Shown here piece by piece: positions 3,654-32,000 of a stretch of 32,000 nt of DNA. Within the stretch, counting starts at the first letter, position 1. Every line of letters starts with the position of its first letter. Position numbers and translations under genes: made by a program. The stretch is taken from the NCBI RefSeq assembly GCF_000406145.1, contig NZ_CM001976.1, forward strand, positions 407,876 through 439,875, read 5' to 3'. This DNA comes from Dickeya dadantii NCPPB 898 (GTDB taxonomy: Bacteria > Pseudomonadota > Gammaproteobacteria > Enterobacterales > Enterobacteriaceae). Under the pieces are notes generated by a model. The model saw only the letters and a program-made list of their open reading frames with translations. It was not told where the DNA came from and made no database searches.

Positions 3654-4670
3654 TTAAATCTCGACGCTGTGGCTTAACGTCGCCACCATCACCGCTTTGA
3701 TGGTGTGCATGCGGTTTTCCGCCTGATCGAACACAATGCTGTGGGCGGATTCAAACACATCGTTGGTGACTTCCATACCGTTGTGCAGGCCGTATTGCTC
3801 CGCCATCTGTTTGCCGAGCGTGGTCTGGTCGTCATGAAACGCCGGCAGGCAGTGCAGGAATTTCACCTGCGGGTTGCCGGTGGCGGCGATCATCGCGGCG
3901 TTAACCTGATATGGCCGCAGCAGGTCGATACGCTGCTGCCATACCTCTTTCGCTTCCCCCATCGAGACCCACACGTCGGTATAGATGAAGTCTACGCCGT
4001 TTACCCCGGCCGCCACGTCTTCAGTCAGCGTAATCGAACCGCCGGTTTTAGCGGCCGCAGCCTGACATTCCGCCACCAGACCGGCATCCGGCCAGCAGGC
4101 TTTCGGGGCGATTAATCGCAGATCCAGCCCGGTGATGGCGGCGGCTTCCTGCATACTGTTGCCCATATTGTTGCGGGTGTCGCCCACGTAGGCCAGCGCC
4201 ATGCCCGACAGCGATTTGCCTGGCAGGTGCTCTTGCATGGTCAGCAGGTCCGCCAGCAACTGGGTCGGATGGAATTCGTTGGTCAGGCCGTTCCACACCG
4301 GCACGCCGGAAAACTCGGCCAGGGTTTCCACCAGCACCTGGCCGTAGCCGCGGTACTGGATGCCGTCGTACATGCGGCCCAGCACCCGGGCGGTGTCTTT
4401 CATGGATTCTTTATGGCCGATCTGGCTGCCGCTGGGGCCGAGGTAGGTGACTTGCGCGCCTTGATCGTATGCAGCAACTTCGAAAGAGCAACGAGTGCGG
4501 GTCGAATCTTTTTCGAAGATGAGTGCGATGTTTTTACCTTGCAGGTGACGGGTTTCGGCGCCGTTTTTCTTATTGGTTTTCAGGGTGGCGGCGAGGGTCA
4601 GAAGGCTGCTGATCTCAGCTGGAGTGAAATCCATCAGCCGTAAAAAATGGCGTTTGTAGAACGGGTTCAT
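3654..4670 (-). CDS. argI: Ornithine carbamoyltransferase
   Basis: Near-colinear with E. coli ArgI: [33 protein letters not shown] and [10 protein letters not shown] motifs. Start was set at [10 protein letters not shown] (ATG 4670, SD ggagaa) by comparison with MSGFYHKHFL of ArgI. The ORF track extends to 4694. Confidence 0.96.
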
Positions 4671-4702
4671 CGTTGTCTTCTCCATGTGGCTCAACGTTTA
4701 AG

Positions 4703-4741
4703 GTTGAATTAAAATTCACTTTATATGTGTAAATATTCAAA
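4703..4741 (-). promoter_or_regulatory. Tandem ARG boxes (ArgR operator) upstream of argI
   Basis: Box 1 (4703-4720, gtTGAATTAAAATTCAct) matches the core TGAAT-WWWW-ATTCA exactly. A 3-bp spacer follows, then box 2 (4724-4741, taTGTGTAAATATTCAaa) with 12 of 14 core matches. Both lie 33-71 bp upstream of the argI start. Confidence 0.75.
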
Positions 4742-4832
4742 TTCAAGTGCCGCGTTCAAACTTTCTGGTGGAGAGAGAGGCTAGCCTGTGGGAAAATAAC
4801 CCTATCTTTGCCGCTTTGATGAGGACTGAGAC

Positions 4833-5261
4833 ATGGCAAACCGCGAACTGCTGGAAGAACAACGTGAAGAGACCCGCCTGATCATTGAGGAGTTGCTGGA
4901 GGACGGCAGCGATCCCGATGCGCTCTATACCATCGAACACCATTTCTCAGCCGAGAAGTTTGAAGATCTGGAAAAAGTGGCGGTGGATGCGTTCAAGCTG
5001 GGTTACGAAGTCACCGACGCCGAAGAAATGGAAATGGAAGACGGCGTGATGCTGATGTGCTGCGATGCTATCAGCGAGTTGGCGTTGAACGCTGAGCTGA
5101 TCGATCAGCAGGTGGAACAACTGCTGGCGCTGGCTGAGCGTCATGGCGTCAATTACGACGGCTGGGGCACCTATTTCGAGGACCCGGACGGCGAGGATGA
5201 AGACGAATTCGAGGAAGACGAAGACTTCTATGATGAGGATGACGACGGCAAACGCCACTGA
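4833..5261 (+). CDS. rraB: Regulator of ribonuclease activity B (RNase E inhibitor)
   Basis: 142 aa, [38 protein letters not shown]..., with a strongly acidic C-terminal tail. It occupies the position next to argI, as in E. coli. Confidence 0.93.
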
Positions 5262-18304: not shown

Positions 18305-18389
18305 GCCGAAGTGGCGAAATCGGTAGACGCAGTTGATTCAAAATCAACCGTAGAAATACGTGCCGGTTCGAGTCCGGCCTTCGGCACCA
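18305..18389 (+). tRNA. leuX: tRNA-Leu (anticodon CAA)
   Basis: The 85-nt sequence gccgaagtggcgaaatcggtagacgcagttgattCAAaatcaaccgtagaaatacgtgccggttcgagtccggccttcggcacca matches my recollection of E. coli leuX. It has a 7-bp acceptor stem, a long variable arm and an encoded CCA. Confidence 0.97.
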
Positions 18390-18390
18390 A
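18372..18390 (+). repeat. attL-type core: 3-prime end of leuX, repeated at 24548-24565
   Basis: gtccggccttcggcaccaa recurs as gtccggccttcgcaccaa (one G deleted) about 6.2 kb downstream. Confidence 0.7.
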
Positions 18391-18608: not shown

Positions 18609-19877
18609 ATGGCCCTGACTGACGTTGTTGCTCGTACCGCTAAGCCCCGCGAGAAAGCCTACAAGCTTGCGGATGCACATGGCCTGTACCTTCTGGTGAG
18701 TCCTAACGGTTCTAAGCGCTGGTATCTCAAGTACCGTTTCGACGGTAAGGAAAGCCGGATTGCTTTCGGTGCCTACCCGCTGATCTCGCTGGCGAAGGCC
18801 AGGGAGAAACGCAACGAGGTGCGATTACTGCTGTCAGAAGGCATCCACCCAACGGAAAAGCGGGAAGAAGAGAAAGAACAGGCACAGGATGCACTGAACA
18901 CCTTTGAAAAGGTGGCAAGAGACTGGCACCGAAACATCAGCCAAAACCGATGGTCACAAACACACGCCGGACGGGTATGGCGTGACATGGAGCGCAATAT
19001 TCTGCCTGCCATCGGCCAGCGCCACATCGCTGACCTGAAAACCAAAGACCTGCTTGAACCGCTTAAAGCCGTGGAGCAAAACGGCCATCTTGATTTGGCG
19101 TCGCGGCTACGCCAGCGCGTTACCGATATCATGCGTTACGCGGTACAAAATGACCTGATAGAGCGCAACCCGGCGCAGGATCTCACCGGGGCGATAGCTG
19201 CGCCAAAGGCAACGCATCGGCCAGCCTTGAAGCTCGATAAACTGCCTGGCTTTCTGGCACGGATTGAACGCTACAAAGGGCGAGCGTTAACCCGATTGGC
19301 TTTAAAACTCACCCTGTGCGTTTTTATCCGTTCCAGTGAGCTACGCTTTGCCCGTTGGCCGGAAATCGACTTTAAACGTGCGATGTGGACGATACCGCCC
19401 GAACGTGAAGCCATCCCCGGAGTGAAACACTCACAGCGTGGTGCAAAGATGCGCTCTGAACATTTGGTGCCGTTATCCCGACAGGCTTTAGCACTGTTGG
19501 AAGAGATTAAGGCTATCAGCGGCGCTCACGAACTGATCTTCCCCGGCGACCACCGACCAACCAAACCGATGAGTGAAAACACCATCAACAGTGCATTGCG
19601 AACAATGGGCTATGACACTACCACCGAAGTATGCGGACACGGCTTCCGCACGATGGCCTGTAGCGCGTTGGTTGAGTCCGGTCAGTGGTCGCGGGATGCG
19701 GTAGAGCGGCAAATGAGCCATCAGGAACGCAATGGCGTCCGTGCTGCTTATATCTATAAAGCGGAACATCTTGAGGAACGCAAGCTGATGCTGCAATGGT
19801 GGGCAGATTATCTGGATGCCAACCGGGAAGAGCATGTCGTGCCGTATGAGTTTATAAATCGTGGTGTAAAAGCATAA
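18609..19877 (+). CDS. Tyrosine recombinase, P4/CP4-57-type phage integrase
   Basis: 422 aa. The N-terminal arm-binding domain is MALTDVVARTAKPREKAYKLADAHGLYLLVSPNGSKRWYLKYRFDGKE. Catalytic-region motifs are IRSSELRFARW, HGFRTMA and VRAAYIYK (Tyr). It is adjacent to a tRNA gene. Confidence 0.95.
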   Translation: MALTDVVARTAKPREKAYKLADAHGLYLLVSPNGSKRWYLKYRFDGKESRIAFGAYPLISLAKAREKRNEVRLLLSEGIHPTEKREEEKEQAQDALNTFEKVARDWHRNISQNRWSQTHAGRVWRDMERNILPAIGQRHIADLKTKDLLEPLKAVEQNGHLDLASRLRQRVTDIMRYAVQNDLIERNPAQDLTGAIAAPKATHRPALKLDKLPGFLARIERYKGRALTRLALKLTLCVFIRSSELRFARWPEIDFKRAMWTIPPEREAIPGVKHSQRGAKMRSEHLVPLSRQALALLEEIKAISGAHELIFPGDHRPTKPMSENTINSALRTMGYDTTTEVCGHGFRTMACSALVESGQWSRDAVERQMSHQERNGVRAAYIYKAEHLEERKLMLQWWADYLDANREEHVVPYEFINRGVKA

Positions 19878-19975: not shown

Positions 19976-21193
19976 ATGTATAATGAAGACGTTAAGGAAT
20001 TTGCGAAAGAAGAAGAGAAAAAACTATTAAGCTTGGACTGTCGCTACTTTACCGAAGATAGTCGGCGTTCAGTTGATAGAGATCCATTTATGCGTGATTA
20101 CGCACGGATTCTTTATTCGTCATCTTTTCGGCGCTTACAGGGAAAGATGCAACTTTTAGATATAGATCCAAGCAAATTTACAAGAAATAGATTAACGCAT
20201 AGCTTAGAGGTTGCGCAAATTGCACGCTCAATAGCTACAGATTTAGGCTTAGAAAACCCCGTGGTTGCTGAATCAGCATCTTTAGCTCATGATCTTGGTA
20301 ATCCACCATTCGGCCATAATGGTGAAAAAATTTTAAATGAACTTATAAAAGATCAAGGCGGATTTGAGGGTAATGCACAGACGTTTAGGATATTAAGAAT
20401 ACTAGAAAAAAAACATCATTCTTTTTCCGGATTAAATCTTACTCTTCGAACAATGCTGTCAGTAACTAAATATTTTAATAGGAAGGGATTAAGTAATAAA
20501 AAATTTATTTATGATGATGATTTTCAGTTCTTAAGTGATGAATTAAATAAAAGGAACATAGGTATTATTAAAAGTATTGATGCTCAGATTATGGATATTG
20601 CCGATGAAATTGCTTATGCTGCGCATGATTTAGAGGATGCTTTAAGCATGAATTATATAACTATGGGCGAGCTTTTGCATGAGTTTAAGATAAGTGTTGA
20701 ATTTAAGGATGCGTTTGATGATATAAGTGAGATATATGAAATGGTTCATAAGGATGCGTTATTATCTCATAGGCTTTGTACTTCTGAAGAATTTGCGTTG
20801 ATTGAAAGAAAAGAATTGACTTCAAATATAGTTAATGTTCTCTGTAATGATATAGATATAGTCAAAGATGATAATAGTATATCCTTGTTAGGATATAGAA
20901 CGAAAAGTAAGTTAGCTGTAGGCTTGAAGAAGCTTTTGTTTAAAGCTGTTTTGAGAAAAAGAAATATACAATTTTATGAGTTAAAGGGTGAGAATATAAT
21001 TAAAGGTCTTTTTGAAGTTTATACTAGTGCATTAAATAGGAATAATCTATTATTTCCCCCTGAGATAAGAAATTTACCTGATTCTAAGGAAAAGTTAGCT
21101 ATAGATCATATCGCAGGTATGATGGATTCGTTTGCTATTCAGGAGTATGAACGATTCTTTGGCATTGGTAGCGCTAATATAATAATGAAATAA
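19976..21193 (+). CDS. Dgt-like HD-domain deoxynucleoside triphosphate triphosphohydrolase (dGTPase family)
   Basis: 405 aa. Motifs are DRDPFMRDYARILYSSSFRRLQGKMQ, NRLTHSLEVAQIARSIA (His), SLAHDLGNPPFGHNGE (HD, as in E. coli Dgt HDIGNPPFGHFGE), GFEGNAQTFRIL and MDIADEIAYAAHDLEDA. SD ggaaagg. The gene is very AT-rich. Confidence 0.9.
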   Translation: MYNEDVKEFAKEEEKKLLSLDCRYFTEDSRRSVDRDPFMRDYARILYSSSFRRLQGKMQLLDIDPSKFTRNRLTHSLEVAQIARSIATDLGLENPVVAESASLAHDLGNPPFGHNGEKILNELIKDQGGFEGNAQTFRILRILEKKHHSFSGLNLTLRTMLSVTKYFNRKGLSNKKFIYDDDFQFLSDELNKRNIGIIKSIDAQIMDIADEIAYAAHDLEDALSMNYITMGELLHEFKISVEFKDAFDDISEIYEMVHKDALLSHRLCTSEEFALIERKELTSNIVNVLCNDIDIVKDDNSISLLGYRTKSKLAVGLKKLLFKAVLRKRNIQFYELKGENIIKGLFEVYTSALNRNNLLFPPEIRNLPDSKEKLAIDHIAGMMDSFAIQEYERFFGIGSANIIMK

Positions 21194-21236
21194 TTGCCAT
21201 TTGGTTTTTATAAAAACAAATAAAATGAGATATTAT

Positions 21237-22865
21237 ATGAAAAAACCTCAACCTAGAAAGGAAAAGCTTTCTATATATCTCGTAAGAAATGCCAATAAAA
21301 AAGATGATGAATTCATAAAAATAGATAAGGCTAAAAATGGAATTGAGATAAAATTAGATGGAGTTGATTATGCATTTCTATATGCAAAAAATAGTTTTAA
21401 AAATACTCCATCTTGGACAAAATTGTTTACTCATTATGAGCATATAAATGCAGATTATTTTGGTATGTCTAGCAACGTTGGTGCTGTTTTTGTTGTTAGA
21501 GCTTTTGGGTATGCTTTTATTTTATCATTTGGTTCCGGTTTTCACTTAATAAAAGATGAAGAAATAGAAAGGGACTTCGGTTTAAGAGTAACATTAAATT
21601 CAGTTGATCCAGACAAACTGAGAAGCTTAGATAAAGCTAGTTATGATCATAATCCTTTAAATTCCCGAACGCAAAGTACAAAAGATGTAGATATTTTTAA
21701 TCTTCATTTAGATTCAGAGTCAGAGTTGCTTTACGCAGTAACTGGGACTTCTTTGGTTAAAGAATTTGGTAGTCAAGTTACTGGGAGAGATGCTCTCACA
21801 CTTGCAGTTGATATTACTTTGGAACAAATATCAGGAATTCTTCATGAAGCAATTTCGAGATATAAGAAAAAACTACCTGATAAGTTTTCTTGGGTTGAGA
21901 ATATCAACAGGGTTCGTGATCAAGATGAAATTGATATTCTTGATTTGGAGTTGGATGACTATTTTTCATCTGGGTGTTATACCAATTTTTGGTTAGGAGA
22001 ACCTGAGATAGTTGATTGGGAGGGGCAAGTTGGATATTCGTTTGATATGTATCCCAGAACACCTAGGTATATTATTTTGACATTAGATGATTATATAGAA
22101 TATCTTAATGGTGAGCCCATTTCTGTATTCAGGCTTAAGGGTGACGTTATTCATATAAATAATAGTGATTTTATATCAACCAAATCTTGGTCTGTATATA
22201 GATGTTTGTATGCTGAAATAATTTTTGGTGATGCGTATTATATATTAAGAAATGGAGTGTGGTATAAAATAAATCAAGATTTTGTTAACTCTGTTGATGA
22301 ATATCTCGTTGATTTAAGTGATTATGATTTTGATTTTCCTATCTATGATCATGAAAGAGAAGATATTTATAACGATTACCTTTGTAAAAATTATTCTAAC
22401 TTTTCTTTAATGGATAAAAAGAATATAGCAATAGGTGGAGTATACGATAAATTGGAACATTGTGATCTTATTCGAAATGGATGTGATTTTATTCATGTTA
22501 AATATTACAGAAGCTCTGGTACATTAAGTCATTTATTCTTTCAAGGTATGGTTGCCGCAGAAGCATTCATTAAGGACAAAGATTATAGAAAAAAGTTAAA
22601 CCCTAAATTGCCTGAATCCATAAGATTAGATGATGTAAACTCAAGGCCAAATCCCAATAAATATAAAGTTGTTTATGCTATAGCGACAGTTAAGAACCTG
22701 CCACAGGAATTACCTTTCTTTTCTAAAGTAACATTAAAAAACACTCTAAAGACATTAAAGGCCTTGGGTTATATTGTATCAATAGCAAGAATTGATATAT
22801 CTCCTATAATTCTTAAGATTAAGAAATGCAAGCCTAAAAAATATCATCTTAATAATTTTAATTAA
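21237..22865 (+). CDS. Uncharacterised 542-aa protein, partner of the Dgt-like gene; possibly TIGR04141/DUF6119-like, unverified
   Basis: A long open frame on the same strand begins 8-44 nt after the dGTPase stop and has the same AT-rich composition. Conserved-looking blocks are GYAFILSFGSGFHLIKDEEIERDFGLRVTLNSVDPDKLRSLD and KLEHCDLIRNGCDFIHVKYYRSSGTLSHLFFQG. The start is ambiguous among TTG 21201, ATG 21225 and ATG 21237. Confidence 0.8.
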   Translation: MKKPQPRKEKLSIYLVRNANKKDDEFIKIDKAKNGIEIKLDGVDYAFLYAKNSFKNTPSWTKLFTHYEHINADYFGMSSNVGAVFVVRAFGYAFILSFGSGFHLIKDEEIERDFGLRVTLNSVDPDKLRSLDKASYDHNPLNSRTQSTKDVDIFNLHLDSESELLYAVTGTSLVKEFGSQVTGRDALTLAVDITLEQISGILHEAISRYKKKLPDKFSWVENINRVRDQDEIDILDLELDDYFSSGCYTNFWLGEPEIVDWEGQVGYSFDMYPRTPRYIILTLDDYIEYLNGEPISVFRLKGDVIHINNSDFISTKSWSVYRCLYAEIIFGDAYYILRNGVWYKINQDFVNSVDEYLVDLSDYDFDFPIYDHEREDIYNDYLCKNYSNFSLMDKKNIAIGGVYDKLEHCDLIRNGCDFIHVKYYRSSGTLSHLFFQGMVAAEAFIKDKDYRKKLNPKLPESIRLDDVNSRPNPNKYKVVYAIATVKNLPQELPFFSKVTLKNTLKTLKALGYIVSIARIDISPIILKIKKCKPKKYHLNNFN

Positions 22866-22949: not shown

Positions 22950-22991
22950 CACCGCGCCCGCCCCCTCCCCAAAAAGGGGGCGGGCGCGGTG
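22950..22991. repeat. Perfect 16-bp GC-only-rich hairpin at a compositional junction
   Basis: caccgcgcccgccccc (22950-22965) is the exact reverse complement of gggggcgggcgcggtg (22976-22991). The loop is tccccaaaaa. No flanking T-run occurs on either strand. Confidence 0.85.
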
Positions 22992-23088: not shown

Positions 23089-23490
23089 TTATTTTAAATC
23101 AGCATGCTTAAATGTTTGTTCGCCAGCCTGGCTATTTGTCATTTTTAGCATGCTATTCTCTTCTGTATAAGTGATTAAGGCGTCATTCGGGTTATCTCGC
23201 CAACGGCCTATGTAGTTAGGTTCCGAATCACTTCCAGCGGTTCGCCATAGCACTCGTGACCCTTCTATCATCTTGCACTGATATTTCCACAGGCTATTAT
23301 CACTTGGCCTGTGATATTGCAAATTAACGAGATCCCCATTCACTTTTGTTTTCATTATTTTGGGTTCTTTTGCGAACTCCATTGACATGGCTGCTTTACA
23401 GATTTCAGCATTCGAGAAGGGAGCTGAAAAAGCGGGAATAGCCATTAATGAGGTACTTAAAATCAGAGAGAACTTAATTAAATGCTTCAT
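23089..23490 (-). CDS. Small secreted protein of unknown function
   Basis: 133 aa. It has a Sec signal peptide, MKHLIKFSLILSTSLMAIPAFSA followed by PF. I recognise no family. Confidence 0.6.
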   Translation of the reverse strand: MKHLIKFSLILSTSLMAIPAFSAPFSNAEICKAAMSMEFAKEPKIMKTKVNGDLVNLQYHRPSDNSLWKYQCKMIEGSRVLWRTAGSDSEPNYIGRWRDNPNDALITYTEENSMLKMTNSQAGEQTFKHADLK

Positions 23491-23518: not shown

Positions 23519-23998
23519 TTACCATAACGATAATAATAAGGTGTGTTCCTGTATTTCTGACGGGACAAAACCCCAGTATTGGTAGAACGCTTTTGCCTCA
23601 TCAGATAACGCATGTACCAATAACGCTTTGTTGCCTACCTGCTGCGCTACATTGCGGGAGCGGAGTACCGCATCTTTCAGAAGCCCGGCACCGATCCCCA
23701 TACGTTGATAACGTTCATCAACGGCTAATCGGCCAAGTACCAGAACAGGAATGGGGTCAGGCATATTGCGCCGGAATGCGCCCGGTGCAACCTGACGCTG
23801 GATGCTACCCGACGCGAGGGCATAGAACCCCACCACACGCTGTGTACCGGCTTCACACACCACGAAGGTGCGTGAAGCGCCCAGCGTCTGATTTTTTAAC
23901 GCCTTGCGTTTCAGCCATTCATTCAATGACGGCTCGGAACAATGAAAATCCACAACTGCATGTTGAGGCAGCAATAATTCAGGTGCCGTTATTCCCAC
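23519..23998 (-). CDS. GNAT-family toxin of a type II toxin-antitoxin system (TacT/AtaT/ItaT-like aminoacyl-tRNA acetyltransferase)
   Basis: 159 aa with a GTG start. VDFHCSEPSLNEWLKRKALKNQ, GFYALASGSI and LGRLAVDERYQRMGIGAGLL are the hallmark blocks of this toxin family. It overlaps the upstream DUF1778-type gene by 10 nt. Confidence 0.85.
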   Translation of the reverse strand: MGITAPELLLPQHAVVDFHCSEPSLNEWLKRKALKNQTLGASRTFVVCEAGTQRVVGFYALASGSIQRQVAPGAFRRNMPDPIPVLVLGRLAVDERYQRMGIGAGLLKDAVLRSRNVAQQVGNKALLVHALSDEAKAFYQYWGFVPSEIQEHTLLLSLW

Positions 23999-24261
23999 GG
24001 AGATTTCCTGTTCAGTAATGCATTCACACGCGGATTATCTGTGACTGGTGATTCCAACACCTGAATGAAAGCATCATATTGTTCATCATTGACCAGAAAC
24101 AGCCTTTGATCCAACAACACATCCTCAGCCTCACGGCAGGCAGCATCAAGGATAAACTCTGTTCTTGATTTCGACAGCAATTTAGCGGCGACATCAATCA
24201 GCTCCCGCTGTGATGCTTTAGCACGAATATTAATCGGCATTTCTTTTGGCTCTGTTCGCAT
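23989..24261 (-). CDS. DUF1778/RHH-type antitoxin (TacA-like)
   Basis: 90 aa, MRTEPKEMPINIRAKASQRELIDVAAKLLSKSRTEFILDAACREAEDVLLDQRLF, which is the characteristic DUF1778 pattern. SD gagagg. The ORF-track start at 24333 is an unsupported extension. Confidence 0.85.
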   Translation of the reverse strand: MRTEPKEMPINIRAKASQRELIDVAAKLLSKSRTEFILDAACREAEDVLLDQRLFLVNDEQYDAFIQVLESPVTDNPRVNALLNRKSPWE

Positions 24262-24547
24262 CGTGACCTCTCTGTGTAGCGAATAGCTATACATCCAGTA
24301 TAGTGAACGGTACAGCAAATAGCCACACGCCATTCATGAACAACATTTTCGTCATAGCGGGGTTGGGTTAGGATCTGTTACACGGAATCGAACCGGAACG
24401 GATAAGAATTAATCTTATTGATAAAATGACGTGATATAGCTCATTGAAAACATGGGCTAAAAATGAAGTGGGGGCATAAAAGGGGGCACCTAAATTAGGT
24501 TGGTGAGTATTAAATTTTATTATTCAATCAATTACATCATTTTGCGT

Positions 24548-24565
24548 GTCCGGCCTTCGCACCAA
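24548..24565 (+). repeat. Degenerate copy of the leuX 3-prime end: attR of island 1 and old att of island 2
   Basis: gtccggccttcgcaccaa differs from tRNA positions 18372-18390 by a single-base deletion. Confidence 0.7.
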
Positions 24566-24750: not shown

Positions 24751-25209
24751 ATGGCGCTCACTGATATCAAAGTCAGAACAGCCAAGCCTTCGGATAAGCA
24801 ATACAAGCTGACCGACGGCAATGGTATGCATCTGCTGGTTCATCCCAATGGCTCAAAGTATTGGCGCTTTCGTTTCGGTGGTAAACAGCACCTGATAGCG
24901 TTTGGCGTCTATCCCGAAGTTTCACTGGCTGATGCCAGACATAAAAGAGAAGCTGCCAGTGGACTGACCCCGCCACGGCTTTCGCACCATGGCCTGTAGC
25001 TTACTGATTGAATCAGGATTATGGTCGAGGGATGCGATGGAACGGCAGATGAGCCACATGGAGCGCAACTCGGTACGAGCGGCGTATATCCTAAAGCTGA
25101 GTATCTGGATGAGCGTAAGCTTATGCTGCAATGGTGGGCAGATTTTCTGGATGCTAATAGGGAAAAGGCGGTGAGTGCGTTTGATTTTGGTAAGATAAAA
25201 AGTCGTTAG
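24751..25209 (+). pseudogene. P4-type integrase pseudogene with a large internal deletion plus a frameshift
   Basis: The N-terminus MALTDIKVRTAKPSDKQYKLTDGNGMHLLVHPNGSKYWRFRFGGKQHLIAFGVYPEVSLADARHKREAA is joined out of frame near 24960-24973 to the C-terminal HGFRTMACSLLIESGLWSRDAMERQMSHMERNSVRAAYI. A further 1-nt frameshift near 25090 precedes KAEYLDERKLMLQWWADFLDANREK. Confidence 0.85.
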
Positions 25210-25235: not shown

Positions 25236-26093
25236 ATGTATACGGATGAGTTATTGGCTATTCAATCTGATTGGTCAAAAAAATCATTGTTATTAATGAG
25301 AAAACTTCTAACATTAATGACTCCGGTTGCTTTATTTGACCAATGGACTAAAGAAGAGCAAAGTACGATTGGTTTTTTGCTTGCTGCATCAGCAAGGTCA
25401 ACAGAAAGTCTATTTTTATTGACCTCATATGGGCAGCTTTGGGACGCAGAAATGATGCAAAGGGCTATCATTGAAGCATCGTTAAAATTTGTATTTCTTC
25501 TTGAATCTAGAGAAACATTTAAAGATAGGTTTAATGAATACTCAACAGCGCAATACGAGATATCCCTACTCAAGGATGATAATAAGGTTTTAGAGCTATT
25601 AAGCATCCTGCCTAACTCTGATGATGAAAAATGGCTCCCTTTGCGGGAACGTTTGCTTGCTGATGAGGAAAGAAAAATGATTAATGAAACGTACGATAAA
25701 AGTTATCGCAGATCTCTTGAAACGCGATGGGGGTTTACTAGTATTATAGGAAGTTTGACCCGTAGCGGAAAACTATTTCATGGGTTAAGTGAATTATCAT
25801 ATGGGTACTCTGTATCAAGCCATGTTCTACATGCCGATTATTTAGGGGTAGTACTACCGATTGAAAGAGATAGTAGAGAGCATGAGAATCGATCTGCTTT
25901 ACATTTGGCTCATTTGAGTAGACATATCTCTGATGCTTTCACATGCCTGATCATGCGACTATATGCTGGATATCGATTTGTCGGGATAGATACGGCGGCC
26001 ATAAATGAAGCTATTAAGAAAATAGATGATCTACAGGTACCATTTCGTGAAGAATATAATAAATGGATAGATATAGAATACGGAGGTAAATAG
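25236..26093 (+). CDS. Hypothetical protein, 285 aa, no family recognised
   Basis: A clean ORF behind SD agggga, AT-rich and predicted to be largely helical, with no TM or signal sequence. Confidence 0.65.
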   Translation: MYTDELLAIQSDWSKKSLLLMRKLLTLMTPVALFDQWTKEEQSTIGFLLAASARSTESLFLLTSYGQLWDAEMMQRAIIEASLKFVFLLESRETFKDRFNEYSTAQYEISLLKDDNKVLELLSILPNSDDEKWLPLRERLLADEERKMINETYDKSYRRSLETRWGFTSIIGSLTRSGKLFHGLSELSYGYSVSSHVLHADYLGVVLPIERDSREHENRSALHLAHLSRHISDAFTCLIMRLYAGYRFVGIDTAAINEAIKKIDDLQVPFREEYNKWIDIEYGGK

Positions 26094-26639: not shown

Positions 26640-28841
26640 ATGGGGTCTCGAACTTTGGATAGCATTGTGGGAAAGCTCAATCCGCTATTGCGGCTAGCAG
26701 CCATCTCGGGCGTCGAAGCTGCGATCACATTCCATATTCTTCGGGGTGATGACTTGGATGCCCGCGATAGCAGTGGCTCAACGCCTCTGATCCTCGCCGC
26801 ATCTAGGAGAAACAGCGGGGCTGTAAGGCTTCTACTTGACGCGGGGGCAAATCCGACACTTGTCGATCCAGAAGGGATGAATGCTCTAGCGCATGCCTTA
26901 CGAGCCAATTGCCTAGAGACAATTGAGATACTAAGTGAGGCATTCAATATGCCACCCTTGGAGGCCACTGAGTCAGATGAAGTAATTACCAACAATCAGG
27001 AAAAGATATCCTCTTGCTTCGATAAAATATCTGATGGCCAGGCATCGGGGAGCGAATCCCACGCAGTGGGCAAGAATATCCCTACCTCTCCTGAATATCA
27101 CTTCGAGCCCATTTCCCCCAAGGCAACGACTCGATATATTTTTGAAGTCGATTCCCTTTCTCTAGATCCTCTTTCCTTGGATGCTGAATTTGAGGACAAC
27201 TGGGAAGTTGAGATTAACCCTGTTGCGCCTGTTGGTGACCAACATGTTGCAGAGGCCGTCAAGAATGTTTACAAGGCGATAGGTCAACATAAGGCAGTAG
27301 ATAACGACGAGGACTGGGGTGATATCGATCTCTATCTTCCTGTAATAAAATCCATTTTAGACCATGAGGGCGTTGATTATACCCTCCGGGTTTTCCTCCT
27401 TGCAGCAATCCGCGATGGGATTATTTCTGAAGAAAACCTTGTTGAACTTTGCTTAAACGCCAACGGATCACGCAATGAAGATTTTGAGAGATTCATTGGT
27501 ATTGCTGCAGGAGAGCTTGGTGCGATTGTGGACGAACAGAGTGGAGTCACTATAAATGATACCTCTCTCGATGAGTCGTCTCTTGAGGAAAAACTCCTTC
27601 TCGATGAAGCAATTGAGTTCATCAAGGATCTAGCCTCGGATCACAATGAACCGTTCAGATTTTATTCCAAGGATATCCGATGCAGGCTTCTTGAGGCCAA
27701 AGAAGAGATCGCTCTTAGTCGAGAGATGGAAGAGGCTTGGCAAGATGTGCTATCGGTCCTTGCTCAATGGCCAGAAGGACTCGCGGTGTTATTTGACTGT
27801 GCTGAAAAGGTTTTGAGAGGGGAGGTTGATGCTGGAGCGTTCAGCACTGGACCTGATTTGCTCCTAGAAGATGGGGCAACAGAACTGGAGGATGTGTACG
27901 ATGAGGATGAAGAGGAAAAAGAGCATGATGCCGGCTCAGCATTTATGACTGCTATAGCAGCCGTTCGGAGTAAGATTGGAGACTTCCAGCGAACCAAAGA
28001 AGCATTAGAAGCGGCTAAGCTAACTCGCGGATTTCTTTTTGAGCTAGCCGAACGAGCCAAAGATGATTCTAATGCAAAGGGCCTTACTGATGCTCTTGAG
28101 CGGCAGTCCTATGCTCGGGATCGCTTGATTCAGTGTAATCTTAGACTCGCTTTATCCATTGCCAAGAAGCACCGGTGGTCAGGAGTGCCGATGGACGATC
28201 TTGTTCAAGAGGCAAACATTGGCCTTATAAAAGCGGTTGAACGCTACGACTGGCGCAGAGGTTTTCGCTTCTCTACATACGCAACGTGGTGGATTCGTCA
28301 ACAGATAACACGTTCCATTGCTGACAAAAGTAGGAGTGTTAGGGCACCGGTACACGTTCAGGATAAGGCTTGGAAGATCATACGGGAGCGCAATGAGATC
28401 GAGTTGCAGAGAGGGTACCCTGAGCGTGATATCGACACAGCTTCGCGGCTCGGAATTCCGCTATCAAAAATATGGATTCTCCTGTCGATATTTGATGATG
28501 CAGAGTCTCTTGATGAGATCGATTTGAATATGAGTTGTGCTCGAGTGGAGCTTCTCGTGAATCGGAATGCCTCGGCACCATTTAAGCTTGTTGAGAATTC
28601 GTCTCTCTCCTCTACGCTCTCGGGAATGCTGGAAGAGTTAGATGAAAGGTCTCGCACAGTGATTATGTATCGCTTTGGATTAGGCAACATTGACGCGATG
28701 ACCTTGGAAGAGGTAGGGCAGATCTTCGGGGTTACACGTGAGCGTATCCGCCAAATAGAGTCCAAAGCGATGCAGAAACTTTCTAGTGAGAAAAGGAAGG
28801 AGATCTTGGCTTCCTTTATGAGCGAGGATGATTATCAATAA
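26640..28841 (+). CDS. Ankyrin-repeat / RpoD-like sigma-70 fusion protein carrying all sigma regions 1.1-4
   Basis: 733 aa. Residues about 12-100 are ankyrin repeats ([45 protein letters not shown]). Residues about 250-300 are region 1.1-like. Region 1.2 is [28 protein letters not shown]. Region 2 is [54 protein letters not shown]. Region 4 is [43 protein letters not shown]. The protein is colinear with E. coli RpoD to the C-terminus. Confidence 0.9.
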   Translation: [733 protein letters not shown]

Positions 28842-30334
28842 TGCAGAAAACCAGATATGCGCCGCCGAAAGCCAATGCAATGATGGAGGCTCTCAGAGGG
28901 CTCGGTTATTCAACCGCAGCAGCCTTGGCTGATGTTGTAGACAACGCTGTGTCTGCAGGTTCTGCAGAGGTGTATCTGCGATTTGAATGGGATGGAACGC
29001 AAAGCTGTATTTCGATACTAGATGATGGTCATGGAATGACTGATACCGAGCTTGAGACTGCCATGACCCTTGGGACGATAAATCCTTTGGATGAAAGGAC
29101 TGCGACTGATCTCGGACGTTTTGGTATGGGTCTGAAGACTGCCTCGTTTTCCCAATGCCGTAGGCTTACTGTTGCTTCCAAGCGAGAAGGCGGAGTTCTG
29201 GTTTGTTTACGCTGGGACTTGGACGCTATCGCTACAGATCCGCAGGTTGGTTGGCGTATGTTCGAGGGACCAGCATTAGGCTCCGAGCGGTTCTTTGAAC
29301 CGCTAAACGACTTAAGCTCGGGGACGCTCGTTCTTTGGGAATTAATGGACAGAGTTGTCATGCCCGGTACGAACTTGGATCACTTTGCCGACCTAATTGA
29401 TGATGTGGAATCCCGTTTATCGATGACCTTCCATCGCCTTATTGAGGGGCCTCGCCCAGATTTCCGCCTGTTCATCAATGGCAAACTGGTGGTCCCTTGG
29501 GATCCGTTCATGGTTGGCCACCCTGCTAAAGCCTTGGAATCTCCCATAGAGCGCAGAATCACTCAGTCAGGAGTTTTGGAGGTCCAATGCCATGTTCTCC
29601 CGCACAAAGATAAATTATCTGACGAGGATCTTTTCAAGGCTGGCGGCCCTGACGGCTGGATATCTCAGCAAGGGTTCTATGTCTATCGTAACAAAAGACT
29701 CCTTCTGGCCGGTAGTTGGCTAGGGCTTGGAAGAGGGAGAGCATGGAGCAGGGATGAATCGCATCGACTTGCGAGAATCCGGGTTGATATGCCGAATACC
29801 GCCGACGCAGATTGGAAGATCGATGTTAAGAAGTCCACTGCCCGACCACCGGTTTTTGTCCGTAACTGGTTGACTGGAATAGCAGAAAACACGAGAGACA
29901 GAGCTCGTAAGGTATTCGCCTTCCGAGGATCGCCGACGTCTAGGTTGAGCAGTGCTCCCATCGAGCAGACTTGGCGGGTTGAACATCTGAAGAGCGGCGT
30001 TCGATACCGCATAGATGAGACGCACCCTGCCGTCGCGGCAGTTATTGAGGTTTGTTCAGACCGAAAGCATCTTGTTAGAGCGATGCTCCGGGTTATTGAG
30101 GAGACAGTCCCTGTCCAACGGATATGGCTCGATACTGCCGAGAACAAGGACACTCCTAGAACAGGGTTTGATGGGGAACCGAACGAAGCTGTTATACAGG
30201 TTGCGAGTGTCCTTTTTAATGATTTGATCGAGCGCAAGGGACTGAGTGTTGAGGAAGCCCGTAAGTCAATGCTCAAGACTGAGCCCTTCCAAAAATATCC
30301 CTCACTAATTGCAAATTTACAGAGAGATGAATGA
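28841..30334 (+). CDS. GHKL-superfamily ATPase, MORC-like (HATPase_c_3 type)
   Basis: 497 aa. The N-box is ALADVVDNAVSAGS, the DxGxG motif is ILDDGHGMT and the Gly-rich lid is LGRFGMGLKTASFS. The start ATG overlaps the sigma gene stop (TAATG at 28839-28843). Confidence 0.88.
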   Translation: MQKTRYAPPKANAMMEALRGLGYSTAAALADVVDNAVSAGSAEVYLRFEWDGTQSCISILDDGHGMTDTELETAMTLGTINPLDERTATDLGRFGMGLKTASFSQCRRLTVASKREGGVLVCLRWDLDAIATDPQVGWRMFEGPALGSERFFEPLNDLSSGTLVLWELMDRVVMPGTNLDHFADLIDDVESRLSMTFHRLIEGPRPDFRLFINGKLVVPWDPFMVGHPAKALESPIERRITQSGVLEVQCHVLPHKDKLSDEDLFKAGGPDGWISQQGFYVYRNKRLLLAGSWLGLGRGRAWSRDESHRLARIRVDMPNTADADWKIDVKKSTARPPVFVRNWLTGIAENTRDRARKVFAFRGSPTSRLSSAPIEQTWRVEHLKSGVRYRIDETHPAVAAVIEVCSDRKHLVRAMLRVIEETVPVQRIWLDTAENKDTPRTGFDGEPNEAVIQVASVLFNDLIERKGLSVEEARKSMLKTEPFQKYPSLIANLQRDE

Positions 30335-32000
30335 ACATGATGGAAGAGGTTGGCTTGCAAGCTGAGCTACTAGAAAACGTCATCGCCACGGCTCAACGGC
30401 TAGTAAAGGCAGAGAAAGATAAATCTAAGATAACCCCGGCGTTCATTGCTGAGAAGGTGAGTTTTGCCACGAAGATGTTTGCTGATGACTCACTTCACTC
30501 GGTGGATCAAAATCAGGCTATTGCCATACTAATTCAGCGTTTCAGTCACCGAATCGGTAAGCCAACCACGTTGAAGAACGATGTAGACCATGTCGACTGG
30601 CTTTCTGCAGCGAGAAAACGTGATTGGCGCTATTGGCGTCGATATGGAGACTACTTGGAATCCAAGCTTTCCGACGTTGTAGTCGAGGGGCTTAACGAGA
30701 CCACTGATGATATCCTCAGCCTCCTGGAGGATCCAGAAAGATCGGACTCATGGGATCGTAGGGGGCTTGTTGTCGGGCATGTGCAATCAGGCAAGACCAG
30801 CAACTACTCAGGACTAATTTGTAAGGCAGCTGATGCTGGCTATAAGATTATCATCGTCCTTGCAGGCATGCATAATAACTTGAGGTCGCAAACTCAGATG
30901 CGGCTAGAAGAGAGTTTTCTTGGCTACGAGACGACCACTGATCGTGATGTCGGTATACCAATAGGTGTTGCAGAGTTCGGTGATGACCTGAAGACCAACT
31001 CTGCAACAACGCGGGCTGAGAACGGTGATTTTAGTAAAGCGATTGCGAGGCGATTTCACGGTATATCTCCAGAGGAGAGGCCATGGCTTTTCGTTGTAAA
31101 GAAGCAAAAGACCGTCCTCACAGCTCTGTTGGACTGGATTCAAAAACGAGTAGCGGACAGCACCGACTCAATTGATGGTCGCAAGCTTGTGACTAAACTT
31201 CCGCTTCTAATGATCGACGACGAGGCAGATAACGCGTCAGTTGATACTGGAGAGCAGATATTCAAGGATGATGGTACACCTGACGAAGAGCATCAGCCTA
31301 AGACTATTAACAGTCTTATTCGTCAGATCCTTCATACCTTCACTAGGAAGGCGTATGTTGGCTATACTGCAACGCCTTTTGCCAACATTTTTATCCACCA
31401 CAAAGGTGCAACAGCGAAGGAAGGCCCTGATCTTTTCCCTCGTTCGTTCATCATCAATTTAGCAGCTCCATCCAATTACGTTGGTCCTACGCAGATGTTT
31501 GGCAAGATGACGAAGGATGGCCGTACGGAGGGGCTGCCTCTATCTAGAAACATCTGTGATCATTACGACCCCAAGTCAGAGTCTGGGTGGATGCCACCAA
31601 AGCACAAGAAGACTCATATCCCTAATTACAACGGCGAAGAGGCGATTCCTCCATCGTTGCAGCAAGCTATCTACACGTTCATTTTGTCATGTGCTGCCCG
31701 TCAATTACGAGGGCAAGGCACCCAACATAGCTCCATGCTGATTCACGTCACCCGTTTCGTTGATGTTCAAAAGCTCGTGTGCGAACAGGTCGATAAGACG
31801 GTACGTCGCATGCGGCAGCGTATAACTCGAGGAATGGGGGCGGAGGAGATTCTGGGACAGTTGCACCAACTTTGGAACGATGACTTTCTTCCTGTTCGAG
31901 ACAAAGTTGCAGTGCTCCTACCAAAAGAGGAGTGTCCTCCGAAAATGCCGACTTGGAATGATATTCTCGCTGTTCTGCCTGAGGTGCTGGAGGATATAGA
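30331..32000 (+). CDS. Z1-domain-type P-loop NTPase (SF2 helicase-like), 3-prime partial
   Basis: I translated this open frame by hand; it is absent from the ORF track because it runs off the window. It begins MNMMEEVGLQAELLEN... The Walker A motif is GLVVGHVQSGKTSNYSGLICKAADAGYKIIIVLAG and the Walker B/DEAD-like motif is LPLLMIDDEADNASV, followed by YVGYTATPFANIF. The start overlaps the upstream stop (ATGA at 30331-30334). Confidence 0.85.
   Translation, partial: MNMMEEVGLQAELLENVIATAQRLVKAEKDKSKITPAFIAEKVSFATKMFADDSLHSVDQNQAIAILIQRFSHRIGKPTTLKNDVDHVDWLSAARKRDWRYWRRYGDYLESKLSDVVVEGLNETTDDILSLLEDPERSDSWDRRGLVVGHVQSGKTSNYSGLICKAADAGYKIIIVLAGMHNNLRSQTQMRLEESFLGYETTTDRDVGIPIGVAEFGDDLKTNSATTRAENGDFSKAIARRFHGISPEERPWLFVVKKQKTVLTALLDWIQKRVADSTDSIDGRKLVTKLPLLMIDDEADNASVDTGEQIFKDDGTPDEEHQPKTINSLIRQILHTFTRKAYVGYTATPFANIFIHHKGATAKEGPDLFPRSFIINLAAPSNYVGPTQMFGKMTKDGRTEGLPLSRNICDHYDPKSESGWMPPKHKKTHIPNYNGEEAIPPSLQQAIYTFILSCAARQLRGQGTQHSSMLIHVTRFVDVQKLVCEQVDKTVRRMRQRITRGMGAEEILGQLHQLWNDDFLPVRDKVAVLLPKEECPPKMPTWNDILAVLPEVLEDI

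What the first reader, a model, noticed from the sequence alone, without database searches (positions are those of the whole stretch)
19976..22865. Very AT-rich two-gene cassette: Dgt-like dNTP triphosphohydrolase plus a large uncharacterised partner, a candidate anti-phage module
The cassette lies directly after the island integrase. By eye its composition drops sharply to far below the host and returns to normal at the GC hairpin at 22950. Gene 1 has every catalytic block of the dGTPase/HD family: THSLEV, AHDLGNPPFGHNGE and DIADEIAYAAHDLED. dGTPase-family enzymes are an established single-gene anti-phage defence acting by dNTP depletion (Tal et al. 2022). Here the enzyme is tightly followed, within 8-44 nt on the same strand, by a 542-554 aa protein with no assigned function. 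Its N-terminal half has a conserved-looking core, FILSFGSGFHLIKDEEIERDFGLRVTLNSVDPDKLRSLD. Its C-terminal part has E-x2-D ... IHVK followed by SHLFFQG (nt 22455-22502). That could be a degenerate PD-(D/E)xK-like nuclease signature. From memory it resembles the sporadically distributed TIGR04141/DUF6119 family, which I cannot verify. A dedicated sensor, regulator or second effector coupled to a dNTPase would be a system architecture I do not know as described.
Basis: partly seen in the sequence, partly recalled or inferred. Interest (0 to 1): 0.72.

Follow-up and report, generated by a model that had tools for sequence, protein, structure and literature searches.

The report
dGTPase and DUF6119 defence islet
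A small mobile island in a Dickeya genome carries a known type of phage-blocking dGTP-destroying enzyme next to a gene of a large unstudied family, and the two look like separate defence genes parked side by side, not a new coupled system.

Summary
Two AT-rich genes (GC 0.30-0.33, host 0.58) lie after a P4-type integrase at tRNA-Leu(CAA). Gene 1 is a dGTPase (TIGR01353; PADLOC dGTPase 1.9e-110).

The coupled-system reading is not supported. Gene 1 is 60% identical, end to end, to Vdg (PDB 9VWA), a Vibrio dGTPase shown in 2026 to defend alone as an octamer. The catalytic, dAMP-pocket and octamer-interface residues are kept.

I fetched 110 DUF6119 loci (55 clusters at 80% identity). A dGTPase is nearby in only two, Brenneria and Edaphovirga. 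Both carry the same tRNA-Leu integrase-dGTPase-DUF6119 block, so this is one lineage. Three dGTPase relatives at about 60% identity lack DUF6119.

DUF6119 is usually solitary and sits in defence islands: inside or beside type I R-M operons, and next to Mrr, NERD, BREX, Gabija-like, PARIS-like and SIR2-HerA genes. Its family-wide invariant E375, E407-x2-D410, H420-x-K422, S431-H432 and Q436 lie on an alpha-beta-beta-beta-alpha-beta core. That suggests a PD-(D/E)xK-like nuclease, but Foldseek found no significant match.

A dNTPase with a dedicated partner already exists (Clover: CloA plus an NTase).

Verdict: two stacked single-gene defence modules. The real lead is DUF6119 as an uncharacterised defence candidate.

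The parts
18305..18389 (+). tRNA-Leu(CAA), the integration site. Its 3' end (18372-18390) is the left copy of the att repeat.
   Evidence: ARAGORN. Rfam tRNA, 59.4 bits. Repeat found.
18609..19877 (+). P4-type tyrosine integrase of the islet. Its GC (0.545) is host-like.
   Evidence: Pfam Arm-DNA-bind_3, Phage_int_M and Phage_integrase. It is 94% identical to the Brenneria orthologue and 90% to the Edaphovirga orthologue.
19976..21193 (+). Gene 1: a standalone Vdg-class dGTP/dNTP triphosphohydrolase (405 aa, HD + HD_assoc domains).
   Evidence: Family hits: Pfam HD and HD_assoc; PADLOC dGTPase 1.9e-110; TIGR01353 1.5e-98.

Closest solved structure: 9VWA (Vdg), E 5.9e-153, aligned 1-401, 60% identity.

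Conserved residues: H75, H105, D106, H114, E117 and D207; R31, R35, R40, R44, Y47, Q81, K146 and V286; H235 and E236.
21237..22865 (+). Gene 2: a DUF6119/TIGR04141 protein (542 aa from ATG 21237; alternative starts at TTG 21201 and ATG 21225). It has N-terminal and middle domains, a small beta-rich region, and a C-terminal PD-(D/E)xK-like core.
   Evidence: Family hits: PF19614 6.6e-128 and TIGR04141 4e-158. No PADLOC model hits it.

Family-wide invariant residues: F98, G99, G101, G115, G183, W342, E375, E407, D410, H420, K422, S431, H432, Q436, P493, F495.

AlphaFold2 models: pLDDT 78.7 for the full protein and 83.9 for the C-terminal part.
22455..22547 (+). Segment encoding the candidate active site: E407-x2-D410, H420-V-K422, S431-H432 and Q436.
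   Evidence: These residues are invariant in 48 representatives that share 28-58% identity with the window protein. They map to strands 411-413 and 417-423 and to helix 427-446 of the model.
22950..22991 (.). GC-rich perfect hairpin (17-bp stem) about 85 nt after the gene 2 stop. No U-tract follows it. Collinearity with the Brenneria islet ends inside it.
   Evidence: Folding gives dG -46.3 kcal/mol, z -8.2. Both arms were found. The blastn end point is at window position about 22964.
23519..24333 (-). TacT-like GNAT toxin (23519-23998) and TacA-like antitoxin (23989-24333). This is additional cargo of this islet copy and is not shared with the Brenneria or Edaphovirga islets.
   Evidence: Pfam Acetyltransf_7/10/1 and TacA1. 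Collinearity with the other islets stops before this region.
24548..24565 (+). Right copy of the att repeat (GTCCGGCCTTCG-CACCAA, one base shorter than the tRNA 3' end). It bounds a roughly 6.2-kb islet and is followed by a second, degraded integrase.
   Evidence: The pattern occurs only twice in the window; none is expected by chance. Integrase remnants at 24751-25188 are 74-76% identical to the first integrase.

Best explanation
What it is: the cassette is the cargo of a roughly 6.2-kb islet driven by a P4-type integrase. The islet is inserted at tRNA-Leu(CAA) of Dickeya dadantii. It carries two independent single-gene anti-phage modules stacked in one transcriptional direction.

Module 1 (gene 1) is a Vdg-class standalone dGTPase.
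- By homology to Vdg, it assembles into an octamer.
- It is allosterically tuned through a conserved dAMP pocket.
- On infection it hydrolyses dGTP (possibly other dNTPs) to nucleoside plus triphosphate. This starves phage DNA replication.
- This mechanism was shown for the homologue and is inferred here.

Module 2 (gene 2) belongs to DUF6119/TIGR04141. This is a large family of uniform proteins of about 530 aa with no published function.
- It is normally a solitary, AT-rich, horizontally moved gene inside defence islands. It is repeatedly found inside or beside type I R-M operons.
- I infer that it is a self-contained defence protein. Its N-terminal and middle domains would recognise a nucleic-acid or infection cue. 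Its C-terminal PD-(D/E)xK-like core (E375, E407/D410, H420-x-K422, Q436) would cleave nucleic acid.

Why they are together: the juxtaposition arose once, in the ancestor of the Dickeya, Brenneria and Edaphovirga islets. It persists because the block moves as a unit. Any benefit of the pairing is probably additive layering of two defences, not obligate coupling.
For: Gene 1 identity and conserved residues.

Vdg works alone: it protects E. coli against T2, T4, T5, T6, T7 and phiX174 without a partner, and protection needs H114 and the octamer interface (PMC13519002).

The pairing occurs in one lineage only:
- The integrase-dGTPase-DUF6119 block is collinear with Brenneria (86.7% nt) and Edaphovirga (77.2% nt). 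Collinearity ends at the gene 2 stop or at the hairpin.
- A dGTPase profile finds no other hit in 110 DUF6119 loci, which form 55 clusters at 80% identity.
- dGTPase relatives in Yersinia ruckeri, Vibrionaceae and Pseudomonas lack DUF6119.

DUF6119 stands alone:
- The family has 3283 representative clusters, and every listed protein that matches at full length is about 510-580 aa with only PF19614 and no fusions.
- In 25 of 40 clusters there is no same-strand ORF within 60 nt on either side.
- Upstream neighbours are heterogeneous.

DUF6119 sits in defence contexts:
- hsdM-hsdS-DUF6119-hsdR with overlapping gene ends, on two plasmids.
- Beside type I R-M systems in S. meliloti, Rhizobium and V. 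parahaemolyticus.
- Next to NERD and PLD genes.
- In SNF2-DUF6119-MTase-RhuM-ResIII, PARIS-like plus SIR2-HerA, and BREX plus Gabija-like neighbourhoods.
- In a neighbour census of 28 loci, the most frequent families are HSDR_N, ResIII and AAA_15 (5 each) and SWI2_SNF2 (4).
- Type I R-M parts lie within the flanks of 13 loci. The three V. parahaemolyticus places are one lineage.

Horizontal acquisition: the DUF6119 gene has lower GC than its flanks in 72 of 76 loci.

Nuclease-like core: invariant residues and an alpha-beta-beta-beta-alpha-beta topology.

No adaptation to the pairing: the paired copies have no lineage-specific insertion or extra domain compared with solitary relatives.
Against: - No experiment exists for either gene of this locus, or for any DUF6119 protein.
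- Three observations are also what a real operon would show: the tight spacing (26-43 nt), the absence of a detectable terminator between the genes, and the similar divergence of both genes across three genera.
- The nuclease assignment is unproven. Foldseek gave no hit at E <= 0.001 for the full or the C-terminal model. The best probabilities were 0.60-0.69 for the CdiA-CT DNase 4g6u and 0.23 for the Hef nuclease. There were no Pfam or PDB sequence links. The acidic residue of the (D/E)xK motif is replaced by His.
- Gene 1 scores below the cut-off of NCBI's antiphage_dGTPase model (275 against 400 bits). It is therefore not in that named clade.
- The defence-island association of DUF6119 is descriptive. 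I had no matched background control.
Confidence: 0.68

Rival explanations
1. True two-gene system in this lineage. DUF6119 would act as a sensor, regulator or second effector that is functionally coupled to the dGTPase, for example by activating or restraining it, or by cutting DNA once dGTP is depleted.
For: - The genes are on the same strand, 26-43 nt apart, in all three genera, with no terminator-like site between them.
- The block ends right after gene 2.
- There is a precedent for a dNTPase with a partner gene: Clover.
- DUF6119 often lies tightly downstream of another gene, in 13 of 40 clusters.
Against: - The pairing is seen in one islet lineage only, 2 of 110 loci.
- Both families are otherwise solitary.
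- The Vdg homologue needs no partner.
- Neither protein shows a lineage-specific extension.
- The tight upstream neighbours of DUF6119 elsewhere are unrelated to each other: NERD, HsdS, SNF2, DUF4276 and a PG_binding_1 protein.
Confidence: 0.12
2. DUF6119 is not a defence gene. It would serve the mobile element itself (for example exclusion of competing elements, addiction or anti-restriction), or it would be a DNA-processing accessory of type I R-M systems.
For: - It occurs on conjugative megaplasmids and in one temperate Pseudomonas phage, between two integrase genes.
- It is embedded in type I R-M operons next to a SprT/YgjP-like metalloprotease.
- It hits phrog_18579, a family of unknown function.
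Against: - It is rare in phages (1 of 50,697 records) and on plasmids (23 of 72,556).
- Most copies are chromosomal and lie among unrelated defence systems without a type I R-M system.
- Here there is no R-M system in the islet.
Confidence: 0.15
3. Gene 1 is a metabolic dNTP-homeostasis paralogue, not an immune gene.
For: - Its best NCBIfam match is the generic TIGR01353 model, and it is below the cut-off of the anti-phage model.
- dGTPases also have housekeeping roles (established knowledge about E. coli Dgt).
Against: - It is island-borne and AT-rich, sits next to an integrase, and lies in a defence hotspot that also holds TacAT and an Mza system.
- It gives a full-length PADLOC dGTPase hit.
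- It is 60% identical to Vdg, which has a demonstrated anti-phage effect.
Confidence: 0.05

Closest known systems
Vdg, the octameric standalone anti-phage dGTPase of Vibrio cholerae (PDB 9VWA/9VWC/9VWG; Shi et al. 2026, PMC13519002)
   Same: - Gene 1 aligns over its full length (1-401) at 60% identity and has the same size (405 aa against 402 aa).
- The catalytic residues are conserved: H114 and the HD residues.
- The dAMP-pocket residues are conserved: R31, R35, R40, R44, Y47, Q81, K146, V286.
- The dimer-to-octamer interface residues are conserved: H235, E236, R322, K323.
   Different: - The octamer-octamer (16-mer/filament) contacts C127, C366 and N364 are not conserved. The paper shows they are dispensable.
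- Gene 1 has a 5-residue insertion at 296-300.
- Gene 1 is carried on an integrase islet and is followed by DUF6119.
- Its activity and oligomeric state are untested here.
dGTPase single-gene defence of Tal et al. 2022 (e.g. Shewanella putrefaciens SpdGTPase; NCBIfam NF041026)
   Same: Same enzyme superfamily and the same dNTP-depletion logic. Gene 1 gives a full-length hit to the PADLOC dGTPase model.
   Different: It belongs to a different clade. It scores 275 bits against a cut-off of 400 for NF041026. The solved dGTPase-like chains of about 440-460 aa align only over residues 19-167 (7lwz, 9p8w).
Clover (CloA dGTPase plus CloB nucleotidyltransferase; Yamaguchi et al. 2025, PMC12265719)
   Same: A two-gene locus in which a dNTPase effector sits next to a second gene.
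   Different: - The Clover partner is a Pol-beta-type NTase that makes the signal p3diT, not a DUF6119 protein.
- The 471-473 aa 'DNTP triphosphohydrolase' chains 9p8s-9p8v, which I take to be CloA (not verified), are only distantly related to gene 1 (E about 1e-22 to 1e-24).
- Clover pairs are reported in more than 650 loci. The dGTPase-DUF6119 pairing is confined to one islet lineage.
Defence genes embedded in type I R-M operons, such as PrrC and RloC, and standalone type IV / PD-(D/E)xK restriction nucleases such as Mrr (from my own knowledge of the literature, not retrieved here)
   Same: Like these, DUF6119 is a single large protein found inside or beside hsd operons. It has a C-terminal D...xK-type motif on an alpha-beta-beta-beta-alpha-beta core.
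   Different: There is no detectable sequence or significant structural similarity to any of them. It has His in place of the acidic residue of the (D/E)xK motif. Its substrate and trigger are unknown.

Membership tests
dGTPase / dNTP triphosphohydrolase (TIGR01353; Pfam HD + HD_assoc) | Full-length match above the curated cut-off | tested here: met
   TIGR01353 scores 330.9 bits against a cut-off of 152.35, covering 2-389 of 389. HD scores 49.2 bits and HD_assoc 45.7 bits, both above their cut-offs.
dGTPase / dNTP triphosphohydrolase (TIGR01353; Pfam HD + HD_assoc) | Metal-binding H...HD...D residues and the catalytic His/Glu | tested here: met
   H75, H105-D106, H114, E117 and D207 are all present and aligned to Vdg.
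Vdg-class octameric anti-phage dGTPase | Close full-length homology, with the dAMP allosteric pocket and the dimer-to-octamer interface residues | tested here: met
   60% identity over 396 aligned positions. R31, R35, R40, R44, Y47, Q81, K146, V286, H235, E236, R322 and K323 are conserved, and K324 is replaced by R (residue list from PMC13519002).
Vdg-class octameric anti-phage dGTPase | Octamer formation, dGTP hydrolysis and phage protection | not testable with these tools
   This needs SEC-MALS or cryo-EM, an enzyme assay and plaque assays.
NCBIfam NF041026 antiphage_dGTPase | Score at or above the curated cut-off of 400 bits | tested here: not met
   The score is 275.2 bits, and the best matched stretch covers only residues 27-167. 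Gene 1 is not filed in this clade.
Clover (CloA-CloB) | An adjacent Pol-beta-type nucleotidyltransferase partner and a CloA-type dNTPase | tested here: not met
   There is no NTase in the islet. The presumed CloA chains 9p8s-v match only at E about 1e-22 to 1e-24.
DUF6119 / TIGR04141 | Full-length match above the cut-off, and presence of the family-invariant residues | tested here: met
   PF19614 scores 428 bits (cut-off 27) over 1-524 of 524. TIGR04141 scores 527 bits (cut-off 35) over 1-516 of 516. All 16 invariant columns of a 48-member alignment are present.
PD-(D/E)xK (restriction-endonuclease-like) nuclease superfamily | An alpha-beta-beta-beta-alpha-beta core with an acidic residue on beta2 and (D/E)xK on beta3 | tested here: inconclusive
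   - The predicted topology fits: H375-385, E389-391, E411-413, E417-423, H427-446, E477-483. D410 and H420-x-K422 are invariant.
- However, the middle motif has His where the acidic residue would be.
PD-(D/E)xK (restriction-endonuclease-like) nuclease superfamily | Significant sequence or structure similarity to a known member | tested here: not met
   Foldseek against PDB gave no hit at E <= 0.001. The best were the CdiA-CT DNase 4g6u (probability 0.60-0.69, TM about 0.3) and Hef 1j24 (probability 0.23). There were no links from Pfam or PDB profile searches.
Known or candidate defence systems in PADLOC-DB 2.0.0 | Gene 2 matches any model of the library | tested here: not met
   No family matched at E <= 0.1.
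   A dGTPase is present in 2 of 110 DUF6119 loci, both from the same tRNA-Leu islet lineage. None of 3 dGTPase relatives has DUF6119 nearby.

The most novel reading that the evidence does not exclude
In the Dickeya/Brenneria/Edaphovirga islet, the Vdg-type dGTPase and the DUF6119 protein have become a functional two-effector module. For example, DUF6119 might sense infection, or might attack phage DNA only when the dGTPase has lowered dGTP. This would be a new dNTPase-partner architecture distinct from Clover. A milder version is more likely (about 0.5) and is already part of my best explanation: DUF6119 on its own is a new, widespread single-protein anti-phage family that is recurrently embedded in type I R-M operons.
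Probability: 0.1. Interest if true: 0.7.

Novelty: new member of a known kind. Interest (0 to 1): 0.42.

Why it matters
The proposed new dNTPase-partner system does not hold up, so effort should not go into it as a system.

The useful outcome is a concrete lead. DUF6119/TIGR04141 has at least 3283 clusters at 50% identity and no function in the searched literature. No model in PADLOC 2.0 matches it. It shows the genomic signature of a standalone defence gene: it is AT-rich, sporadic, and found inside type I R-M operons and among BREX, Gabija-like, PARIS-like and SIR2-HerA genes. It also has an invariant nuclease-like motif that gives clear mutagenesis targets.

The locus further documents a tRNA-Leu defence hotspot in a plant pathogen, with tandem islets: dGTPase + DUF6119 + TacAT, followed by an Mza system.

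Tried and rejected
- E. coli genomes: megablast of the cassette found no match.
- Literature: full-text searches for DUF6119, TIGR04141, PF19614 and 'sporadically distributed protein' returned nothing relevant.
- Sequence links for DUF6119: a profile search against PDB sequences gave 0 hits at E <= 1. A lenient Pfam scan of 48 family members found only PF19614 recurrently.
- Structure links for DUF6119: Foldseek of the full model against PDB and BFVD, and of a separately predicted C-terminal domain against PDB, gave no significant match.
- PLD/HKD reading of 'HVK': rejected by inspecting the aligned family sequences. The HxK(x)4D...GSxN pattern is not there; there is no conserved D or N.
- Diverse-alignment scan: the search for related loci with the diverse alignment A2 failed, as it had no stretch conserved enough. 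The closer alignment A1 was used instead.
- Shared AT-richness as evidence of coupling: rejected. DUF6119 is AT-poorer... rather, lower in GC than its flanks in 72 of 76 loci whatever its neighbours, and solitary dGTPase relatives are also AT-rich.
- Promoter scan: uninformative in AT-rich DNA (16 sites found, 17 expected).
- Residue clustering: I could not test how the invariant residues cluster in space, because model coordinates are not exposed.


Full report
**Observation.** The window is from Dickeya dadantii: the gene 1 product is 100% identical to a D. dadantii dGTP triphosphohydrolase. The gene order is pepA, lptF, lptG, then tRNA-Leu(CAA) at 18305-18389, then a P4-type integrase at 18609-19877. 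Two same-strand ORFs follow, at 19976-21193 (405 aa) and 21201-22865. For gene 2, ATG 21237 (542 aa) fits the N-termini of the homologues best. GC drops from about 0.58 to 0.29-0.36 across the two genes. The hairpin at 22950-22991 is a 17-bp GC stem with dG -46 kcal/mol and z -8.2. One detail needs correcting. The composition does not return to host level after the hairpin, because the islet continues. It holds a secreted 133-aa protein and a TacT/TacA module, up to an att repeat at 24548-24565 that copies the tRNA 3' end at 18372-18390. A second island with a degraded integrase follows.

**Gene 1.** It has HD and HD_assoc domains. It matches TIGR01353 at more than twice the cut-off and the PADLOC dGTPase model at 1.9e-110. 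It is below the cut-off of NCBI's antiphage_dGTPase model (275 against 400 bits), so it is not in the clade of the Shewanella enzyme. Its closest solved relative is chain 9VWA (E 5.9e-153, aligned 1-401). This is Vdg, the Vibrio cholerae dGTPase of Shi et al. 2026 (PMC13519002). Vdg expressed alone protects E. coli against T2, T4, T5, T6, T7 and phiX174. Protection depends on H114 and on the dimer-to-octamer interface. Gene 1 is 60% identical to Vdg. It keeps the catalytic H114, the HD residues, the whole dAMP pocket (R31, R35, R40, R44, Y47, Q81, K146, V286) and the interface residues H235, E236, R322 and K323. Only the dispensable octamer-octamer contacts differ. Gene 1 is therefore a new member of a known standalone anti-phage enzyme class.

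**Gene 2.** The family is large: 3283 representative clusters at E <= 0.001. The listed full-length members are uniformly about 510-580 aa, and in the two searches that report precomputed domains they carry only PF19614, with no fusions. No PADLOC 2.0 model matches it. The paper library holds nothing about it. Across 48 representatives that share 28-58% identity with the window protein, 16 positions are invariant: F98, G99, G101, G115, G183, W342, E375, E407, D410, H420, K422, S431, H432, Q436, P493 and F495. In the AlphaFold2 models (pLDDT 78.7 for the full protein, 83.9 for the C-terminal part), these residues fall on helix 375-385, strands 411-413 and 417-423, and helix 427-446. That is the alpha-beta-beta-beta-alpha-beta order of restriction-endonuclease-like nucleases. 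However, the usual acidic residue of the (D/E)xK motif is His here. Foldseek found no significant structural match; the best probabilities were 0.60-0.69 for the CdiA-CT DNase 4g6u and 0.23 for the Hef nuclease. Profile searches of PDB sequences and Pfam gave nothing either. The nuclease reading is therefore a reasoned inference (I put it near 0.45), not a result.

**Are the two genes a system?** I collected 110 DUF6119 loci, which form 55 clusters at 80% identity. They came from genomes, metagenomes, plasmids and one phage, and look-ups of close and distant homologues. A dGTPase profile finds a hit within the flanks of only two of them: Brenneria goodwinii and Edaphovirga cremea.
- Both carry the same lptG, tRNA-Leu, integrase, dGTPase, DUF6119 block. 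It is collinear with the window at 86.7% and 77.2% nucleotide identity and ends at the gene 2 stop or at the hairpin. This is one evolutionary event.
- DUF6119 relatives at 67-68% identity already lack the dGTPase.
- From the other side, dGTPase relatives at about 60% identity in Yersinia ruckeri, Vibrionaceae and Pseudomonas have no DUF6119 nearby.
- The paired copies have no insertion or extra domain compared with solitary relatives.
- The shared AT-richness is not evidence of coupling. DUF6119 has lower GC than its flanks in 72 of 76 loci, and solitary dGTPase relatives are AT-rich as well.

In addition, the homologue of gene 1 works alone.

**What DUF6119 does associate with.** In 25 of 40 clusters there is no same-strand ORF within 60 nt on either side. 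Where a tight upstream neighbour exists, it differs from clade to clade. The recurrent theme is defence islands:
- The gene lies inside type I R-M operons (hsdM-hsdS-DUF6119-hsdR-SprT, with overlapping gene ends) on a Mesorhizobium and an Actibacterium plasmid.
- It lies beside type I R-M systems in S. meliloti pSymB, Rhizobium sp. AB2/73 and V. parahaemolyticus, the last also with Mrr.
- It follows PLD and NERD genes in Aeromonas.
- Distant members (31-36% identity) sit in three settings: an SNF2-DUF6119-MTase-RhuM-ResIII operon; between a PARIS-like AAA_15 + DUF4276 pair and SIR2 + HerA; and between BREX PglZ-BrxL and a Gabija-like pair.
- Type I R-M parts lie within the flanks of 13 loci, of which the three V. 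parahaemolyticus places are one lineage.
- In a census of the four nearest neighbours in 28 non-redundant loci, the most frequent Pfam families are HSDR_N, ResIII and AAA_15 (5 each) and SWI2_SNF2 (4).
- The family is rare in phages (1 of 50,697 records, in the integrase region of a temperate Pseudomonas phage) and on plasmids (23 of 72,556).

This is the signature of a mobile, self-contained defence gene. I had no matched background control, so the enrichment is descriptive.

**Mechanism proposed.**
- Shown by homology: gene 1 depletes dGTP as an octameric, dAMP-regulated enzyme and blocks phage DNA synthesis.
- Inferred: gene 2 is an independent effector. Its N-terminal and middle domains would recognise a nucleic-acid or infection cue, and its C-terminal PD-(D/E)xK-like site would cut nucleic acid. 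The N-terminal part includes the highly conserved but low-confidence loop 129-168.
- Inferred: the two genes are probably co-transcribed cargo of one islet and give layered protection. No terminator-like site lies between them.

**Comparison with known systems.** A dNTPase with a dedicated partner is already described: Clover, which pairs the CloA dGTPase with the CloB nucleotidyltransferase in more than 650 loci (PMC12265719). Gene 1 is only distantly related to the chains I take to be CloA (E about 1e-22 to 1e-24), and the islet contains no NTase.

**Verdict.** The sequence observation is confirmed. The enzyme and family assignments are confirmed. The proposed new two-gene architecture is not supported. 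The cassette is best described as two stacked single-gene defence modules on a tRNA-Leu islet. The dGTPase is a new member of a known kind. DUF6119 is a well-defined, uncharacterised defence candidate worth testing. Functional coupling in this one lineage remains possible, at about 0.1.

Noticed in passing
window 26640-32000 (+): The second island downstream carries an Mza defence system. MzaA (26640-28841) is an ankyrin-repeat protein fused to sigma-70 regions 2 and 4 (PADLOC 3.5e-62). MzaB (28841-30334) is a HATPase_c_3 protein (1.1e-173). MzaC starts at 30331 and runs off the window (2e-190). The tRNA-Leu site is thus a defence hotspot with tandem islands.
   Followed up: partly
window 24751-25188 (+): Remnants of a second P4-type integrase: an N-terminal 82-aa ORF and a C-terminal fragment, 74-76% identical to the 3' part of the first integrase. 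They lie just after the att repeat at 24548-24565 and indicate successive insertions at the same tRNA.
   Followed up: partly
window 23519-24333 (-), 23089-23490 (-) and 25236-26093 (+): - A TacT-like GNAT toxin and TacA-like antitoxin pair (23519-24333) lies inside the first islet.
- A 133-aa protein (23089-23490) has an N-terminal signal-peptide-like start and no family hit.
- A DUF5677 protein (25236-26093) has unknown function.
   Followed up: no
L094-L106 (metagenome contigs, several labelled human gut), about 4266-4979 in each locus: In one DUF6119 clade (43-44% identical to the window protein), a conserved protein of about 237 aa with a C-terminal PG_binding_1 domain lies 4-20 nt upstream on the same strand in all 13 loci. 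This is a lineage-specific partner different from the dGTPase.
   Followed up: partly
L024 6010-7677, L109 4152-5873 and L110 4881-6551: DUF6119 is embedded in or adjacent to type I R-M operons, which in these three cases also carry a SprT/YgjP-like zinc metalloprotease right after hsdR. The trio hsdR, SprT and DUF6119 recurs in three alphaproteobacterial plasmids.
   Followed up: partly
L019 443-979 and L021/L022 4589-5959: Some solitary relatives of gene 1 (about 60% identity) have notable upstream neighbours. In one Vibrionaceae contig it is an NTP_transf_6 nucleotidyltransferase, a Clover-like arrangement. In Pseudomonas guariconensis it is a radical-SAM protein that ends 41 nt before the dGTPase.
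   Followed up: no
window 21621-21740 (residues 129-168 of gene 2): The most conserved stretch of DUF6119 (KLRSLDKASYDHNPLNSRTQS...) is predicted with very low confidence (pLDDT 29-39). It may be a flexible loop that becomes ordered only on substrate binding or on oligomerisation.
   Followed up: no
L023 (Pseudomonas phage vB_PaeS-D14B, 38375-40084 of the record): The only phage-borne DUF6119 homologue in 50,697 phage records lies between two integrase genes, at the end of a temperate phage genome. This looks like a moron or accessory gene.
   Followed up: partly
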